DNA of 7,457 nucleotides from a virus (lineage: Duplodnaviria; Heunggongvirae; Uroviricota; Caudoviricetes). Every line of letters starts with the position of its first letter. Within the stretch, counting starts at the first letter, position 1. Of the stretch, positions 197-6,175 are shown piece by piece. A model generated the notes under the pieces. The model did no database searches, was not told the DNA's origin, and was given only the letters and a program-made list of their open reading frames with translations. Position numbers and translations under genes: made by a program. Location: IMG/VR virus record IMGVR_UViG_2737471865_000004, positions 1-7,457 of that record; one strand, written 5' to 3'.

Positions 197-3100
197 CTGA
201 GTCAGCCGAGAAGAATTTCCCCGCTTATTCGCACCTTCCCTAATAATACAACCATTAACGGAGGAAGACAGACAATTCATGACGGGGGCATTTCCACCGG
301 TACGATAATCGACAGTGGCAATCAGGACGTTTATACAGGTGGTATCAGCAATGGAACGACAATTAAGGGTGGTAATTCACACATAAGTGGGGGGACTGCG
401 AATGGAACCATCATTGATGGTGGAGGGCAGACAGTAACAACTCAGGGGCATGTTGATGGTACAACGATAAATAAGTCCGGTTATCAGGACATCACGCAAG
501 GAAGTATTGCAACGAACACAATCATAAATGGTGGACGACAGTATGTTGAACAGAGCACAGTAGGAACAACCACCATTAAAAATGGCGGTGAGCAAAGAGT
601 ATATGAAAGCCATGCGCTGGACACGACGATTGAAGGTGGAACTCAGTCTCTGAATAATAAGTCAACGGCAAAAAATACTCAGATCTATTCTGGTGGTACG
701 CAAATTGTTGATTACACCAGCTCCTCGGATGTTATTGAAGTTTATTCCGGTGGCGTGCTTGATGTTAGTGGTGGTACGGCAACAAATGTTACCCAGCACG
801 ATGGTGCAATTTTAAAAACAAACACTAACGGTACGACGGTGAGCGGTACGAATAGTGAAGGTGCATTCTCCATCCACAATCACGTGGCAGACAATGTGTT
901 GCTGGAAAACGGTGGTCATTTAGACATAAACGCATATGGTTCGGCAAACAAGACGATTATTAAAGATAAAGGAACAATGTCAGTTTTAACGAATGCTAAA
1001 GCTGATGCGACCCGAATAGATAACGGCGGGGTAATGGATGTTACCGGAAACGCGACCAATACCATAATCAATGGTGGTACACAGAATATTAATAATCATG
1101 GTATTGCCACGGGTACCAATATCAACGGCGGAACGCAAAATATCAAGAGCGGCGGGAAAGCTGACACGACAATTATATCCTCCGGGAGCCGGCAGGTTGT
1201 TGAGAAAGATGGTACGGCAACTGGCAGCAATATTAGCGCCGGAGGCTCGCTGATTGTCTATACCGGTGGTATTGCACATGGGGTTAACCAGGAGACGGGC
1301 AGTGCTTTAGTTGCCAACACGGGCGCAGGGACTGATATTGAAGGATACAACAAGCTCTCTCACTTCACTATTACCGGAGGGGAGGCTAATTATGTTGTGC
1401 TGGAAAATACCGGCGAACTGACGGTAGTGGCTAAAACCTCGGCGAAAAATACTACCGTTGATGCTGGCGGTAAGCTGATTGTCCAGAAGGAGGCTAAAAC
1501 AGATACCACCAGACTTAATAATGGTGGCGTTCTGGAGGTTCAGGACGGTGGTGAGGCTAAGCATGTTGAGCAACAATCCGGCGGCGCATTAATTGCTTCC
1601 ACAACTTCCGGAACCCTTATCGAAGGAATCAACAGTTATGGTGATGCTTTCTACATCAGGAATTCAGAAGCTAAAAATGTAGTGCTGGAAAACGCTGGCT
1701 CATTAACAGTCGTCACTGGTTCCCGGGCAGTTGATACGATTATTAATGCCAACGGCAAAATGGATGTTTATGGAAAAGATGTTGGCACTGTACTCAATAG
1801 TGCTGGCACCCAAACAATATATGCCAGTGCCACTTCTGATAAAGCAAATATCAAAGGTGGCAAGCAAACGGTATATGGATTAGCCACTGAGGCAAATATC
1901 GAAAGTGGTGAACAAATTGTTGATGGTGGGTCAACAGAGAAAACACACATCAATGGTGGCACGCAAACCGTTCAGAATTATGGTAAGGCAATCAATACCG
2001 ATATCGTCTCTGGCCTACAACAAATTATGGCAAACGGGACAGCGGAAGGTTCCATTATTAATGGGTGTTCACAGGTAGTTAATGAGGGCGGTCTGGCTGA
2101 AAACTCGGTGCTTAATGACGGCGGCACACTCGATGTGCGGGAGAAAGGCAGCGCAACGGGGATACAGCAGAGTAGCCAGGACGCTTTGGTTGCAACCACC
2201 AGGGCGACGCGGGTCACAGGAACACGCGCGGATGGCGTCGCGTTCAGCATCGAGCAGGGTGCGGCGAACAATATCCTGCTGGCAAATGGCGGCGTGTTAA
2301 CCATGGAGTCAGACACCTCTTCTGACAAAACACAGGTCAATACGGGCGGACGGGAGATCGTCAAAACAAAAGCCACTGCGACAGGCACGACGCTCACCGG
2401 CGGCGAACAAATCGTCGAGGGGGTGGCGAATGAGACAACGATTAACGACGGCGGAATACAAACAGTTTCAGCTAACGGAGAGGCAATAAAAACAAAGATC
2501 AATGAAGGCGGTACGCTGACAGTTAACGATAATGGCAAAGCGACAGATATCGTCCAGAACAGCGGTGCCGCTCTCCAGACGAGCACGGCTAACGGTATTG
2601 AAATCAGCGGTACTCACCAGTACGGCACTTTTTCCATTTCCGGCAATTTAGCGACCAATATGTTGCTGGAAAATGGCGGTAATTTATTGGTATTAGCAGG
2701 TACCGAAGCTCGCGACTCCACGGTTGGCAGCGGTGGAGCCGCCAACGGCAGTTATCGCAGCAACGGGCTGGGCGGTCACATTGAAACCGGGATGCGATTT
2801 ACCGATGGTAACTGGAACCTGACGCCGTATGCATCGTTAACGGGGGTTCACCGCTGATAACCCTGAATATCATTTATCCAATGGCATGGAATCGAAATCA
2901 GTCGATACCCGCAGTTTATATCGTGAACTGGGTGCAACGCTGAGTTACAACATGCGTCTGGGGAACGGTATGGAAGTTGAGCCGTGGCTGAAGGCGGCTG
3001 TGCGCAAAGAATTTGTCGATGATAACCGGGTGAAAGTGAATAGTGACGGTAATTTCGTCAATGATTTGTCGGGCAGACGTGGAATATACCAGGCAGGTAT

Positions 3101-3212
3101 TAAAGCCTCATTCAGCAGTACGTTAAGCGGGCATCTTGGGGTGGGGTATAGCCATGGTGCCGGTGTGGAATCCCCGTGGAACGGGGTAGCTGGTGTGAAC
3201 TGGTCGTTCTGA
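197..3212 (+). pseudogene. ypjA: Type Va (AIDA-I/Ag43-like) autotransporter adhesin remnant, ypjA-like; 5'-truncated and frameshifted
   Basis: One frame is open from 197 (just after an in-frame TGA at 194-196) to TGA at 2855-2857, with no in-frame ATG or signal peptide; the track ORF 755-2857 begins at an internal GTG. Translation is Gly/Thr/Asn-rich with recurring ...T-I-I-N-G-G-T-Q... units typical of AIDA-type passenger repeats. ORF 2886-3212 in another frame ends ...GVNWSF, a typical beta-barrel C-terminus; that frame is open back to 2841, so the frame switch lies at about 2841-2857. Symbol is by synteny only: an autotransporter 3' end ~160 bp from the ssrA-derived att core, as I recall for ypjA next to CP4-57 in E. 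coli K-12. Confidence 0.75.
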
Positions 3213-3221
3213 CCATCAACG

Positions 3222-3245
3222 AAAAAGCCCACATCTGTGGGCTTT
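3222..3245. terminator. Bidirectional intrinsic terminator hairpin (AAAAA-GCCCAC-ATCT-GTGGGC-TTT)
   Basis: Perfect 6-bp GC-rich stem 3227-3232 / 3237-3242 with a 4-nt loop, A5 tract upstream and T3 downstream on the plus strand; on the minus strand the same hairpin is followed by TTTTT. It lies 10 bp after the autotransporter stop and ~130 bp downstream (minus-strand sense) of the ssrA 3' end. Confidence 0.5.
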
Positions 3246-3372
3246 CATGTCACCAGGAGCCGCGGCTCCTTTGCGTATCCTTTTATGTCTCTTCACCGTC
3301 TGGTCGGTGTCCTGCTGAGACTGCTAACTTCCTGTTTTTATTGGTGTTGTCCTTATACCGTCCAATCATGAT

Positions 3373-3417
3373 TGGTGGAGCTGGCGGGAGTTGAACCCGC
3401 GTCCGAAATTCCTACAT
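3373..3417 (-). other. ssrA: 3'-terminal ~45 nt of ssrA (tmRNA) including the CCA end: prophage attachment-site core at the prophage/chromosome junction
   Basis: Minus strand reads ...ATGTAGGAATTTCGGACGCGGGTTCAACTCCCGCCAGCTCCACCA, which matches the 3' end of E. coli tmRNA as I recall it. The match stops at 3417/3418 and nothing upstream resembles the rest of ssrA, so this is a fragment or att core, not a gene. Confidence 0.7.
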
Positions 3418-3533
3418 ACCATTTTGACTATAATAAAAACATATATTTATGTTTTAAAACAGTACGTTAGTGTTATTTTGTTTTTGTCGGTTTTACACAT
3501 TTTTAATGCTCTGCCGCCAAGTTGTCGCCATTG

Positions 3534-4517
3534 CTAATTCCTATCAGCAGGTAGAATTGCTGGGTAGAGCTTAGAGCAATCATTGCCATAGTCAGGGATA
3601 AAGTCCCATAGCCCTTTTGGCGTTTGGAAGACCTCAGGGCTTAAGCCAATCAGCATATAAACATGAACTAACAGCTCGCGCAATCCAGTGACCATTTGCT
3701 TTATTTGTTTTTCATCAGAGAAAGAAGTGGTGAAGGGTTTTTCTTCAATGGAGTCAAAAAGAATAAACTCATGTTTTTCATATCGATAGTCGATCCCTAA
3801 TTCTCTGCAAAGTTGGATAATATTGATTTCGAGCATTTGAAGGGAAATCACTTGGATATCATAAGAAGTCTCTTTGTTGTAACAGCTTTTAATAGCTTTG
3901 TTGATATTCTTATAATAATCTTGAACTCTACCCATAAATAATGAACTTATTTCTTTGCTATAGCCTTCTTCAATAGAGGATTTTGTAAAAATATTCATGT
4001 AAAGAATATAAGGGTGAGAAATGGAAAGTTCTATATATTTTTTTCCATCATCGTGTTCGGTAAACTCTCTACTAACGATAAATGAAGGGACGGTTTTAAA
4101 AATATCGGCATAACTCTTCTGGTGGGCATAAAATGAATCAGATTTATTTTTTGCTTTTACCAGCTCTATTTGATGCTCTGTCCTTGAAAGCTGCGTCTCT
4201 GTTTGAATGGTCCTGTGAATATTCTTAACTATAGCTCCAAGAGGTACTGAACTGGCTAGCAGCATTAGAGGGAATTTACTGATTTCGTAAAAGCGAGTAT
4301 AGCCGTGGGCACTTAACACCGGGACCTTGCCCCACCATGCGAAAATCCCAAAATAAAAGAATGATAATACTGGTATTCCGATTGATAACCAGAATAATTT
4401 CTGTTTTATAAGGTTTTGTTCATTTAATAAATACCACTTGTATTTATATGTTAAATACAATATGTATATTAACATTACAACATAGAACATAATGCCAATT
4501 GATGAATAGAGGGTCAT
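3534..4517 (-). CDS. Hypothetical membrane-anchored protein, 327 aa (two N-terminal hydrophobic helices plus ~265-aa C-terminal domain); AT-rich prophage cargo gene of unknown function
   Basis: Uninterrupted 327-codon ORF. Its ATG (4517-4515) overlaps the int stop codon (ATGA overlap). Hydrophobic segments at roughly residues 7-24 and 41-62. Hand-counted GC of sampled 60-nt stretches is ~23-28% versus ~48% in int. No catalytic motif I can recognise. Confidence 0.7.
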   Translation of the reverse strand: MTLYSSIGIMFYVVMLIYILYLTYKYKWYLLNEQNLIKQKLFWLSIGIPVLSFFYFGIFAWWGKVPVLSAHGYTRFYEISKFPLMLLASSVPLGAIVKNIHRTIQTETQLSRTEHQIELVKAKNKSDSFYAHQKSYADIFKTVPSFIVSREFTEHDDGKKYIELSISHPYILYMNIFTKSSIEEGYSKEISSLFMGRVQDYYKNINKAIKSCYNKETSYDIQVISLQMLEINIIQLCRELGIDYRYEKHEFILFDSIEEKPFTTSFSDEKQIKQMVTGLRELLVHVYMLIGLSPEVFQTPKGLWDFIPDYGNDCSKLYPAILPADRN

Positions 4518-5541
4518 GCTTTTTTCCAGTCTAATTTGTAAAGTGGATTTTTTGTTACAGCATCTTCCAAGTGATCAGGGGCAAAGTGAGCGTAAACCAT
4601 CGTCATTTTTATATCAGCATGGCCCAGAATATCGCGCAGTACCAGTATATTTCCGCCGTTCATCATAAAATGGCTGGCGAATGTATGGCGCAGTACGTGG
4701 GTGCACTGGCCCTCTGGCAGTTCGATACCGGCTCGCTTTACTGCACGCTCAAAGGATTTTCTGCATGGGGTAAATAATCTCCCCCTGTTTTTAGGTAGTT
4801 CGTCATACAGTTCTTGAGATATTGGAACGGTTCGGTTTTTTTTACCTTTGGTCTTGGTATAAGTAATGCGATATTTTGATAACTGATGCCCTTGCAGGTT
4901 TTCTGCTTCACTCCATCGGGCACCAGTTGCTAGGCATATTTTTGCAATCATCAACAGACTGGGACTCTGAGAATCAGCACAGGCATCCAGTAGGCGTTTA
5001 ATTTCTTCCGGGGTCAGGAATGCTAGTTCACCCTCAGCGATTTTAAATGTTGGCAGCCCGACGAGAGGATTTGGTGCTGACCAGTGGCCTAGTTTTTTCA
5101 ATGTGCCGAAAACCGATGATAGGTACGTTGCTCAAGATTCACCGTGCGTGGTTTTACTGGCGACATTAGTGTGCCGTCTTCGTTACGAAGGTCACCTTTT
5201 AACCGTGCTTCGCGGTATTTCGTAAAGTCTCCGGCTGTCAGTTCTGAGGCGATGGGGTCGCCTAGACCATTACAGATAATTCTAAGTTTCGCCATGAGGC
5301 GCTTGGGGTCTGCGAGTGTCTGACCATACAGGGAATACCAAAGCTCAATTAACTCTGATAGGCGTCGCCGATCATCCTTTTCACCCAACCACGGTTTTTT
5401 ATTCACTTCTTCCATTGTGAAGCTTTCAAACGCAATGGCTTCGCCTTTCGTGGCAAATTGCTTACGCACGCGCTTGCCATTGCGTCCATTGGGATAGCAC
5501 TCACACAACCATTTTCCGTTCGGCTGTTTTCTGATGGTCAT
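4514..5541 (-). pseudogene. int: Tyrosine recombinase / integrase of the P2/186 family, split by a frameshift (N-terminal part 5098-5541, C-terminal part 4514-5101)
   Basis: N-terminal ORF begins MTIRKQPNGKWLCECYPNGRNGKRVRKQF... and C-terminal ORF carries ...LATGARWSEAE..., ...HVLRHTFASHFMMNGGNILVLRDILGHADIKMTMVYAHFAP..., which recall the P2 Int catalytic region. The C-terminal frame is open only from 5131 downward after a stop at 5132-5134, and homology resumes there (…ATYLSSVFGTLKKLGHW), so a single indel at about 5123-5135 separates the halves. Combined length ~340 aa. Confidence 0.85.
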
Positions 5542-5542
5542 A

Positions 5543-6175
5543 TCAAAGGCTCTTAATGATTTTCAGTGCGCGGCCTACTACCTCAATGTCATCCAGGCCG
5601 CACTCAAACGATGAATCATCCTGATGCACTACTAATTTGTTTCCCGGGAGTCGAGTCAATTTAACAATGCTTTTTATCCCGTCGATATCGACTAACCACA
5701 TACCATTTACTAGTGGTGTTTGGTTGCGATCTATTAAATAAGAATCACCAGAAGTAGTCACCAGCAGTAGGTTGCTTGAGTTTGAGGGGAGTATGCTGCT
5801 ATCAATGATTGCTTTTCCAGCATCGATCAATAAACCACCGTTGAGAGTCGCCTTGTCAATTTCAGGAGATACTAGTTCAGAAAGAGGTATAACCTTGCTG
5901 GAGTTCACGGAATTGATATTTTTTTTGGGTTCAATGTTTGAACCTGGCTCCCCCTGTCCGGTGGTTAGCCACAGTAAAGAAACTCCTGTTTCCAAGGCGC
6001 ACTGAATCACCCACTCTGCAGGAAAACTATCTCTTAAGTATCTGTTTGCCATGGTACTTTTTGATGCGCCTAAGTGATCGCAAAGTTGCTGTCTGGACTT
6101 GAAATCATAGGCTGCCATTAGTCTATGGATAGCCTCTCTTCCCCCTGTATTCTCTCCAGCCTTTACCTGTATCAT
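5543..6175 (-). CDS. cI: CI-type lysogeny repressor (N-terminal HTH domain); occupies the 186 cI / P2 C position immediately upstream of int
   Basis: 210-codon ORF whose stop lies 1 nt before the int start, implying a cI-int operon. N-terminal region (...SRQQLCDHLGASKSTMANRYLRD...) looks like an HTH. AGGA sits about 6 nt upstream of the first ATG; an internal Met 19 codons in would give 191 aa. Confidence 0.65.
   Translation of the reverse strand: MIQVKAGENTGGREAIHRLMAAYDFKSRQQLCDHLGASKSTMANRYLRDSFPAEWVIQCALETGVSLLWLTTGQGEPGSNIEPKKNINSVNSSKVIPLSELVSPEIDKATLNGGLLIDAGKAIIDSSILPSNSSNLLLVTTSGDSYLIDRNQTPLVNGMWLVDIDGIKSIVKLTRLPGNKLVVHQDDSSFECGLDDIEVVGRALKIIKSL

What the first reader, a model, noticed from the sequence alone, without database searches (positions are those of the whole stretch)
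3534..4517. AT-rich membrane-anchored orphan gene between int and the att core: candidate prophage defense or superinfection-exclusion cargo
A 327-codon gene sits where canonical 186/P2 genomes, as I recall, have int directly beside attP. Hand-counted GC is roughly 23-28% against ~48% for the adjacent int, which argues for separate acquisition. Its ATG overlaps the int stop (ATGA), so it should be co-transcribed with cI-int and expressed in the lysogen, the pattern expected for lysogenic-conversion or anti-phage morons. The product has two N-terminal transmembrane-like segments and a ~265-aa domain with no motif I can assign. Candidate roles (membrane-acting abortive-infection effector, injection blocker) are inference only.
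Basis: partly seen in the sequence, partly recalled or inferred. Interest (0 to 1): 0.85.

Follow-up and report, generated by a model that had tools for sequence, protein, structure and literature searches.

The report
Variable prophage cargo gene beside integrase
A real but uncharacterised membrane-protein gene fills a swappable one-gene slot at the end of a P2/186-like prophage of E. coli, a slot that holds proven anti-phage genes in sister prophages, so it is a good but untested candidate for a new phage-defence gene.

Summary
The ORF is real: 3534-4517 on the minus strand, 327 aa, with its ATG inside the int stop (ATGA). It is AT-rich, but GC is 35.1%, not 23-28%; int is 45-49%.

It is not an orphan. 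It belongs to PHROG 17460 (unknown function). A profile search finds 953 clusters, and every source calls members "hypothetical protein". There is no Pfam, NCBIfam or PADLOC match and no significant fold match.

The protein has three predicted transmembrane helices, not two. An invariant motif follows them (NIHRTIQTExQ...KNxxDxxxxHxK). The C-terminal domain evolves fast and is predicted cytoplasmic.

The prophage is integrated at ssrA; the att core is at 3373-3417. Homology to sister prophages breaks exactly at the two ORF ends.

Among the 60 most similar E. coli prophages, the slot holds:
- this family: 12
- anti-phage dCTP deaminase: 14
- GapS1 or a likely GapS1: 16
- HNH nuclease: 4
- unknowns: 5
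- nothing: 6 (26 bp between the flanks)
- unresolved: 3

A distant member sits in the classical P2 old/tin hotspot.

Best reading: a lysogen-expressed, single-gene membrane sensor-effector for inter-phage competition. This rests on context only. Function and mechanism are untested.

The parts
3534..4517 (-). 327-aa cargo gene (PHROG 17460 family; RefSeq WP_052521740.1, 'hypothetical protein').
   Evidence: GC is 35.1%. dN/dS is 0.05 against the L021 allele.
4514..4517 (-). ATGA overlap: the cargo start codon lies inside the int stop codon.
   Evidence: The same 4-bp overlap is seen for 44%- and 35%-identical homologues.
4443..4514 (-). TM helix 1 (residues about 2-25).
   Evidence: AF2 helix 2-25; hydropathy. 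It is absent from 13 of 75 distant homologues.
4335..4400 (-). TM helix 2 (residues about 40-61). It follows a K/R-rich loop (residues 24-40) that is predicted cytoplasmic.
4224..4274 (-). TM helix 3 (residues 82-98). It follows the conserved loop 62-81 (W61, G63, P66, G72, F76, E78-K81), which is predicted periplasmic.
   Evidence: No charged residue in 127 homologues; mean hydropathy 1.8-2.1. Conservation.
4116..4223 (-). Invariant juxtamembrane motif on the long helix: N99-I-H-R-T-I-Q-T-E-x-Q109 ... K123-N-x-x-D127 ... H132-x-K134.
   Evidence: Invariant or nearly invariant columns in alignments A1 and A2. AF2 helix 81-141.
3537..4094 (-). Fast-evolving C-terminal alpha/beta domain (residues 142-327), predicted cytoplasmic.
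3418..3532 (.). Conserved attP arm shared by all sister prophages, whatever their cargo.
   Evidence: 87-91% identity to loci with other cargo or with none.
3503..3532 (-). Out-of-frame remnant 'NGDNLAAEH*' at the outer edge of the arm. It is the shared 3' tail of many cargo ORFs.
   Evidence: The same tail ends 19 of 52 family members and the GapS1-like cargo of L006.
3373..3417 (-). att core: the last 45 nt of ssrA (tmRNA). This is the prophage end.
   Evidence: Sequence. Rfam tmRNA partial match, 33 bits. Homology to L091 ends at 3373. The intact ssrA lies at the other prophage end in strain SCU-106.
4514..5541 (-). int (tyrosine integrase). Here it is frameshifted by a 1-bp deletion near 5123, giving two ORFs (5098-5541 and 4514-5101).
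   Evidence: It is intact (342 aa) in SCU-106.
5543..6175 (-). cI repressor, upstream on the same strand. It is the presumed start of the lysogenic cI-int-cargo transcript.
   Evidence: Co-transcription is inferred, not shown.

Best explanation
The gene is an exchangeable single-gene cargo cassette of an ssrA-integrating P2/186-like (Peduoviridae) prophage, and its most likely role is inter-phage competition (anti-phage defence). Proposed mechanism, all of it inferred: the gene is transcribed with cI-int in the lysogen. The protein inserts in the inner membrane through three TM helices, with the N-terminus outside and the C-terminus inside. The conserved module (TM helices plus the HRTIQTE/KNxxD motif) is the effector or oligomerisation part. 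The fast-evolving cytoplasmic C-terminal domain senses a component of an infecting phage. Sensing then switches the membrane module to depolarise or permeabilise the cell, or otherwise block infection, in the manner of an abortive-infection system. Shown here: the gene is real and under purifying selection; the cassette boundaries; the variable slot holding bona fide defence genes; the family's conserved position after int; and the contrast between a conserved N-terminus and a variable C-terminus. Inferred: expression, topology, any anti-phage activity, and the effector mechanism.
For: 1. Cassette: homology to sister prophages breaks at the ORF ends, and an empty slot has only 26 bp there.
2. 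Slot contents in the 60 best-matching prophages are 14 dCTP deaminase, 13 annotated GapS1 or shown to be GapS1-like plus 3 inferred from an identical locus length, 12 of this family, 4 HNH, 5 unknown, 6 empty and 3 unresolved. The dCTP deaminase matches PADLOC dCTPase at E 1.9e-145. GAPS1 and its E. coli homologues were validated experimentally (bioRxiv 10.1101/2023.03.28.534373).
3. All cargo genes measured share 33-35% GC.
4. In 67 of 71 IMG/VR loci the family gene directly follows this Int. Int is mostly 90-96% identical, while the cargo protein is mostly 28-48% identical and does not track CI identity.
5. Distant members sit alone between portal/ogr and gpA of a P2-like phage. That is the old/tin defence hotspot (PMC9122126; PMC9519451).
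6. Architecture: three TM helices, an invariant polar motif, and a variable domain of confident but unmatched fold.
7. The gene is dispensable, since empty slots exist, yet it is under purifying selection with dN/dS 0.05-0.09.
Against: - There is no functional data for any family member. Every source names them 'hypothetical', and no paper mentions the accession.
- No PADLOC, Pfam or NCBIfam model matches, even across 75 distant members.
- No fold relative was found.
- Guilt by association in a cargo slot does not prove defence. The slot also holds unknowns, and hotspots carry non-defence genes.
- Topology rests only on hydropathy and the positive-inside rule.
- Two genome loci (Pseudomonas, Edwardsiella) showed no phage or integrase gene among the neighbouring ORFs scanned.
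- int is frameshifted in this window, so expression by coupling is uncertain here.
Confidence: 0.5

Rival explanations
1. Superinfection-exclusion protein. The inner-membrane protein blocks genome entry of incoming phages at the membrane, in the manner of T4 Imm, P22 SieA or HK97 gp15. It would not sense infection and kill or arrest the cell.
For: It is a predicted membrane protein made from the prophage end next to the immunity region. Its periplasmic loop 62-81 is highly conserved and could contact a host or phage entry component. The family is tied to one prophage lineage.
Against: The fast-evolving part is the predicted cytoplasmic domain, not the periplasmic loop. There is no similarity to any Pfam or PADLOC model at E up to 10; I recall both libraries holding Imm/Sie-type models, but I did not check this. 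The known genes in the slot act inside the cell: dCTP deaminase (my own knowledge of that system) and GapS1.
Confidence: 0.2
2. Lysogenic-conversion or host-fitness membrane factor unrelated to phages, for example envelope, stress or colonisation functions.
For: It is AT-rich accessory cargo at a prophage end, a place where conversion genes also sit (my own knowledge of P22-like gtr loci). No defence model matches it. A few members have no phage or integrase gene among the neighbours scanned.
Against: The same slot holds two validated defence genes and a nuclease in about half of the sister prophages. A distant member lies in the P2 old/tin hotspot. The rapid turnover of one domain next to a 90-96% conserved int looks like an arms race.
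Confidence: 0.15
3. Phage-benefit accessory gene of another type: a counter-defence factor, a lysis or lysogeny modulator, or a stabilising toxin.
For: It is tightly linked and translationally coupled to int across the family. A long conserved helix with polar invariant residues could be a protein-interaction surface.
Against: The gene is dispensable, because empty slots occur, and it is replaceable by host-protective defence genes. No partner or antitoxin gene is present; it is a single gene in both hotspots. Membrane anchoring is unusual for known anti-defence proteins (my own knowledge).
Confidence: 0.1

Closest known systems
Defence hotspots of P2-like phages and P4 satellites: old/tin locus between gpA and gpQ, Z/fun locus, P4 psu-int (Rousset 2022, PMC9122126; Vassallo 2022, PMC9519451)
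   Same: A short locus flanked by conserved phage genes, whose content differs between otherwise similar prophages and includes known defence systems. A distant member of this family lies in the gpA-gpQ hotspot itself.
   Different: This slot lies between int and attP of ssrA-integrating 186-like prophages. It is not one of the loci I found described in those papers. It holds one gene whose ends coincide with the recombination boundaries.
GapS1 and anti-phage dCTP deaminase (single-gene defence proteins)
   Same: They occupy the identical slot in sister prophages, are single genes, and have 33-35% GC.
   Different: There is no sequence or fold similarity. Neither has a predicted TM helix by my reading of the sequences. 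GapS1 is a PD-(D/E)xK enzyme triggered by a capsid protein. The 327-aa protein has no recognisable enzymatic domain.
Membrane effectors of abortive-infection systems (CBASS/Pycsar 2TM and PycTM effectors, SLATT, Kiwa KwaA, RexB)
   Same: N-terminal TM helices that could disrupt the membrane on activation, with the sensor or regulator part in the cytoplasm.
   Different: Only noise-level hits among 75 members: PycTM E 0.0024 (2 members), 2TM_IV E 4.4e-05 (1), KwaA E 0.0055 and 0.0087 (1 member each to two models). There is no partner cyclase or second gene. The HRTIQTE motif matched no model in any library searched here.
Prophage-expressed membrane proteins giving heterotypic defence in mycobacteriophages, e.g. 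Butters gp30/gp31 (bioRxiv 10.1101/2020.04.27.053744, abstract seen)
   Same: Genes expressed from a prophage whose products, here predicted membrane proteins, protect against unrelated phages. That the mycobacteriophage genes lie near the integration and immunity region and encode membrane proteins is my recollection; the abstract seen says only 'central region'.
   Different: Unrelated hosts and sequences. The Butters system has two components. Nothing here has been tested.
PD-T7-4 (Vassallo 2022)
   Same: A defence gene reported to 'often overlap an integrase gene'.
   Different: PD-T7-4 is a Zn-finger-HEPN protein of about 220 aa. The 327-aa protein matches no PADLOC model.

Membership tests
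PHROG 17460 (phage protein family of unknown function) | Significant match to the family profile over most of its length | tested here: met
   E 2.3e-51, residues 6-284 against profile positions 4-285 of 343.
Variable cargo / defence hotspot of P2-like prophages | Locus bounded by conserved phage sequences, with content that differs between closely related prophages | tested here: met
   Boundaries at window 3530-3532 and 4522-4541. At least seven different contents, including empty.
Variable cargo / defence hotspot of P2-like prophages | Known anti-phage systems occur at the same locus | tested here: met
   dCTP deaminase, PADLOC dCTPase E 1.9e-145. GapS1 by RefSeq annotation, validated.
Anti-phage defence gene (functional class) | Reduces infection by at least one phage when present | not testable with these tools
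Known defence protein families (PADLOC-DB v2.0.0, NCBIfam 20.0) | Profile match | tested here: not met
   No families at E up to 10 for the protein. Only noise-level TM hits among 75 distant members.
Superinfection-exclusion membrane proteins (Imm, SieA/SieB type) | Sequence similarity to a known Sie family | tested here: not met
   No Pfam or PADLOC match at E up to 10. I did not check which Sie models those libraries hold.
Superinfection-exclusion membrane proteins (Imm, SieA/SieB type) | Blocks entry of phage DNA | not testable with these tools
   Requires an injection or adsorption assay.
2TM / SLATT-type membrane effectors | Profile similarity to SLATT, 2TM or PycTM models | tested here: not met
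   No Pfam hit. PADLOC hits to 2TM or PycTM in 1-2 of 75 members at E 4e-05 to 2e-03, as expected from hydrophobic composition alone.

The most novel reading that the evidence does not exclude
The family is a new single-protein anti-phage system. A conserved three-TM module with the invariant HRTIQTE/KNxxD juxtamembrane motif would be a previously unrecognised membrane effector. A rapidly diversifying cytoplasmic domain would gate it by recognising phage proteins. The int-attP interval of ssrA-integrating Peduoviridae would then be a third one-gene defence hotspot of P2-like phages, with cassette exchange by recombination between the int 3' end and the attP arm.
Probability: 0.35. Interest if true: 0.7.

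Novelty: new variant of a known kind. Interest (0 to 1): 0.5.

Why it matters
If confirmed, this adds a new single-gene membrane defence family. A profile search finds about 950 clusters at 50% identity, and the closest relatives are all Enterobacterales, including E. coli, Salmonella and Klebsiella. It would also add a compact, easily mined hotspot (int to attP arm) to the catalogue of prophage-borne immunity.

The slot has sharply defined boundaries and one gene per cassette. That makes it a clean discovery tool for further candidates, such as the 418-aa and 197-aa unknowns seen here.

It also bears on phage therapy against these hosts, because such prophage cargo changes phage susceptibility from strain to strain.

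Tried and rejected
- **Family libraries.** Pfam, NCBIfam and PADLOC scans of the protein, and Pfam and PADLOC scans of 75 distant members, gave nothing meaningful.
- **PDB sequence profile search**. Only coiled-coil or designed-helix noise (best E 0.005).
- **PD-T7-4** ('overlaps an integrase'). Rejected because it is an unrelated Zn-finger-HEPN protein.
- **tRNA as attachment site.** ARAGORN found none. The site is a tmRNA 3' fragment.
- **The search for related loci with the divergent alignment A2** failed for lack of a conserved stretch. A1 worked.
- **Unbiased census of slot contents** by a spread-sampled search. It failed because the short arm was not joined to the rest of the match and cII-only matches dominated. 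The tally therefore rests on the 60 best matches.
- **Literature searches** for the accession and for an int-att hotspot found nothing specific.
- **Promoter and terminator scan** was uninformative: counts were at or below the shuffle expectation.

Full report
**1. The observation**

The window holds a 984-nt ORF at 3534..4517 on the minus strand, encoding 327 aa. RefSeq annotates the same ORF in seven complete E. coli genomes as the hypothetical protein WP_052521740.1. Its ATG lies inside the int stop codon, read as ...AAAGCATGACC....

Measured GC is 35.1%. The two int ORFs are 45.1% and 48.6%, cI is 43.8%, and the whole window is 45.3%. Single 100-bp windows within the gene fall to 26-28%.

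The ORF is a real gene:
- At this base composition, 327 stop-free codons have a chance probability of about 3e-11 (my arithmetic).
- dN/dS against an 80%-identical allele (L021) is 0.05 overall and 0.09 in the C-terminal domain.
- The exact protein occurs on 267 contigs of E. coli and Salmonella, always named 'hypothetical protein'.

**2. Surroundings**

To the right, on the same strand, lie int (4514-5541) and cI (5543-6175). Beyond them lie the divergent apl and cII genes of a 186-like switch.

To the left lies the 45-nt 3' end of ssrA (3373-3417, minus strand). It was recognised by eye and as a partial Rfam tmRNA match. Further left is a fragmented ypjA autotransporter gene.

In strain SCU-106, which is 99.9% identical to the window, the intact ssrA lies about 32 kb away at the other end of a complete P2/186-like prophage. 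The gene is therefore the last gene of an ssrA-integrated Peduoviridae prophage, between int and the att core. ARAGORN found no tRNA.

In this window int carries a 1-bp deletion near 5123 relative to SCU-106, and it is split into two ORFs.

**3. The slot is a one-gene variable cassette**

I compared the window with sister prophages by BLAST. Homology runs through cI and int and stops at window 4522-4541. It resumes at 3530-3532 and continues through the attP arm to 3373. The non-homologous segment is therefore the ORF itself. In an 'empty' prophage (L096) only 26 bp separate the two flanks.

The table gives the slot contents in the 60 E. coli prophages most similar to the flanks.

| Slot content | Count | Evidence |
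|---|---|---|
| This allele | 7 | |
| Other members of the same family (4 of 353 aa, 1 of 309 aa) | 5 | HMM check on one of each; four confirmed at DNA level |
| Anti-phage dCTP deaminase | 14 | PADLOC dCTPase E 1.9e-145 |
| GapS1, annotated | 12 | RefSeq annotation |
| GapS1-like, 510 aa, 48.6% identical to GapS1 | 1 | |
| Likely GapS1: locus of identical length, annotated only as hypothetical | 3 |, inferred |
| HNH nuclease | 4 | |
| Unknown protein, 418 aa (3) and one further unknown | 4 | |
| Unknown protein, 197 aa | 1 | |
| Empty | 6 | |
| Unresolved | 3 | |

GAPS1, including its E. coli homologues, has been validated experimentally as an anti-phage system (bioRxiv 10.1101/2023.03.28.534373). 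Every cargo gene I measured in this slot has 33-35% GC. The int clade is present in 221 of 5426 complete E. coli genomes.

**4. The gene belongs to a large family tied to this position**

It matches PHROG 17460, of unknown function, at E 2e-51. A word-seeded search found 64 homologues, all from Enterobacterales where an organism is named (about half carry no name) and all called hypothetical. A full profile search found 953 clusters at 50% identity with E <= 1e-3.

Context of the homologues:
- Homologues of 44% identity (E. coli) and about 35% identity (Klebsiella) sit in exactly the same place, with the same 4-bp overlap with int.
- In 67 of 71 IMG/VR viral contigs the family gene directly follows this Int. 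Int is mostly 90-96% identical, but the cargo protein is mostly only 28-48% identical. CI identity ranges from 31% to 98% and does not track cargo identity.
- The sequenced Klebsiella phage Kp4865-2 (Peduoviridae) has CI, then Int (94% identical), then a family member, then the ssrA core.
- Distant members (P0190 in L019, and L088) stand alone between portal/ogr and the replication gene gpA of a P2-like phage. That is the old/tin hotspot described by Rousset et al. and by Vassallo et al..
- A search of species-representative genomes returned eight loci. Five follow this Int at 90-93% identity and one follows a shorter, 76%-identical Int match. The Pseudomonas chlororaphis and Edwardsiella loci showed no phage or integrase gene among the neighbouring ORFs scanned; umuDC-like and transporter genes lie nearby.

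**5. The protein**

AlphaFold2 with 52 homologues gives a confident model, with pLDDT 86. It contains:
- helices at residues 2-25 and 40-61;
- a short helix at 70-79;
- a 61-residue helix at 81-141;
- an alpha/beta domain at 146-312.

Modelled alone, that domain has pLDDT 84.9 and pTM 0.84.

Hydropathy shows three hydrophobic segments. The third, residues 82-98, has no charged residue in 127 homologues and is as hydrophobic as the first two. Loop 24-40 is rich in K and R. By the positive-inside rule this puts the N-terminus outside and the C-terminal domain in the cytoplasm. This topology is an inference. Of 75 distant members, 13 lack the first helix, which keeps the same orientation for the rest of the protein.

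Conservation is strongly uneven. The invariant or nearly invariant residues are:
- in TM2 and the loop 62-81: P49, W61, G63, P66, G72, F76, E78-K81;
- in a polar motif just after TM3: N99-I-H-R-T-I-Q-T-E-x-Q109, K123-N-x-x-D127 and H132-x-K134.

All 126 N-terminal halves are mutually detectable by BLASTP, with median identity 44%. Only 9.7% of C-terminal pairs are detectable.

No known family or fold matches:
- Pfam, NCBIfam and PADLOC give nothing.
- A PDB sequence profile search gives only coiled-coil noise.
- Foldseek against viral structures gives nothing.

Weak hits to HEPN-like bundles prompted a check for the Rx4-6H motif. It is present only in the gene's own subclade, so I reject HEPN.

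**6. Interpretation**

What is shown: the gene is an exchangeable, dispensable cargo gene under purifying selection. It sits in a slot that carries validated anti-phage genes in about half of the sister prophages. It belongs to a family that also appears in the classical P2 defence hotspot. Its architecture is a conserved membrane module joined to a fast-evolving soluble domain.

What I infer: the gene is expressed from the lysogenic cI-int transcript. That cI and int of phage 186 are transcribed together from pL is my own recollection. The consensus scan found no promoter-like site in the 3' part of int just upstream of the gene, which is weak evidence. I further infer that the protein acts in inter-phage competition. 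The most likely form is a membrane-anchored sensor-effector, in which the cytoplasmic variable domain senses a phage component and the conserved membrane module executes the response (confidence about 0.5 for defence in this form).

The rivals are:
- a classical injection-blocking exclusion protein (0.2);
- a phage-unrelated conversion factor (0.15);
- another phage-benefit function (0.1).

**7. Novelty**

Defence hotspots in P2-like phages are well known. This particular slot (int to attP arm of ssrA-integrating 186-like prophages) and this protein family are not described in the literature I could search. Neither is in PADLOC v2 or NCBIfam 20. I therefore rate it a new variant of a known kind. 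It is a solid, testable candidate, but not a surprise to specialists, and it has no functional evidence yet.

Noticed in passing
window 5098-5125 (int): int has a 1-bp deletion relative to strain SCU-106 and is split into ORFs 5098-5541 and 4514-5101. Either the prophage is locked in and cannot excise, or this is an assembly error. It would also uncouple translation of the cargo gene from int.
   Followed up: partly
window 3503-3532 (minus strand): Just after the cargo stop, in the +1 frame, the conserved att arm encodes 'NGDNLAAEH*'. The same tail ends 19 of 52 family members and a GapS1-like cargo protein (L006). Cassette exchange therefore seems to recombine inside the last codons of an ancestral cargo ORF.
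   Followed up: partly
window 755-3212: The neighbouring autotransporter gene ypjA/ehaD is broken into at least two ORFs (755-2857 and 2886-3212). It is annotated as a pseudogene in SCU-106, where an IS3 element also sits upstream. The window's first 377 bases do not match SCU-106.
   Followed up: no
window 3373-3548: Rfam gives a sub-threshold tmRNA match (33 bits against a gathering score of 47) over 176 bases. Only the last 45 nt (3373-3417) are true ssrA sequence. The rest is the phage att arm.
   Followed up: yes
L106 (SCU-106 prophage), 1380-3839 and 24565-25047: The same prophage carries further unassigned cargo. DinI-like, 304-aa hypothetical and HIRAN-domain genes lie in the gpA-portal (old/tin) hotspot. 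A 160-aa hypothetical lies between ogr and ssrA.
   Followed up: no
L007 1660-2916; L095 461-1054: Two other unknown cargo proteins occupy the same slot (418 aa and 197 aa). Neither has a Pfam or PADLOC match. They are further defence candidates.
   Followed up: partly
L091 541-2274: The dCTP deaminase cargo lies in the opposite orientation to int. It must therefore have its own promoter, unlike the family studied here.
   Followed up: no
L009-L012, L015, L091, L092, L094, L095: Beyond the att core, many related loci continue directly into another integrase-bearing island or a P4-like satellite (Psu, Ogr/Delta). These are tandem arrays of elements at ssrA.
   Followed up: no
cluster members of the window protein: Many database copies, especially from Salmonella draft genomes, are partial proteins of 114-189 aa, which may mean that draft contigs often break inside or beside this gene.
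   Followed up: no
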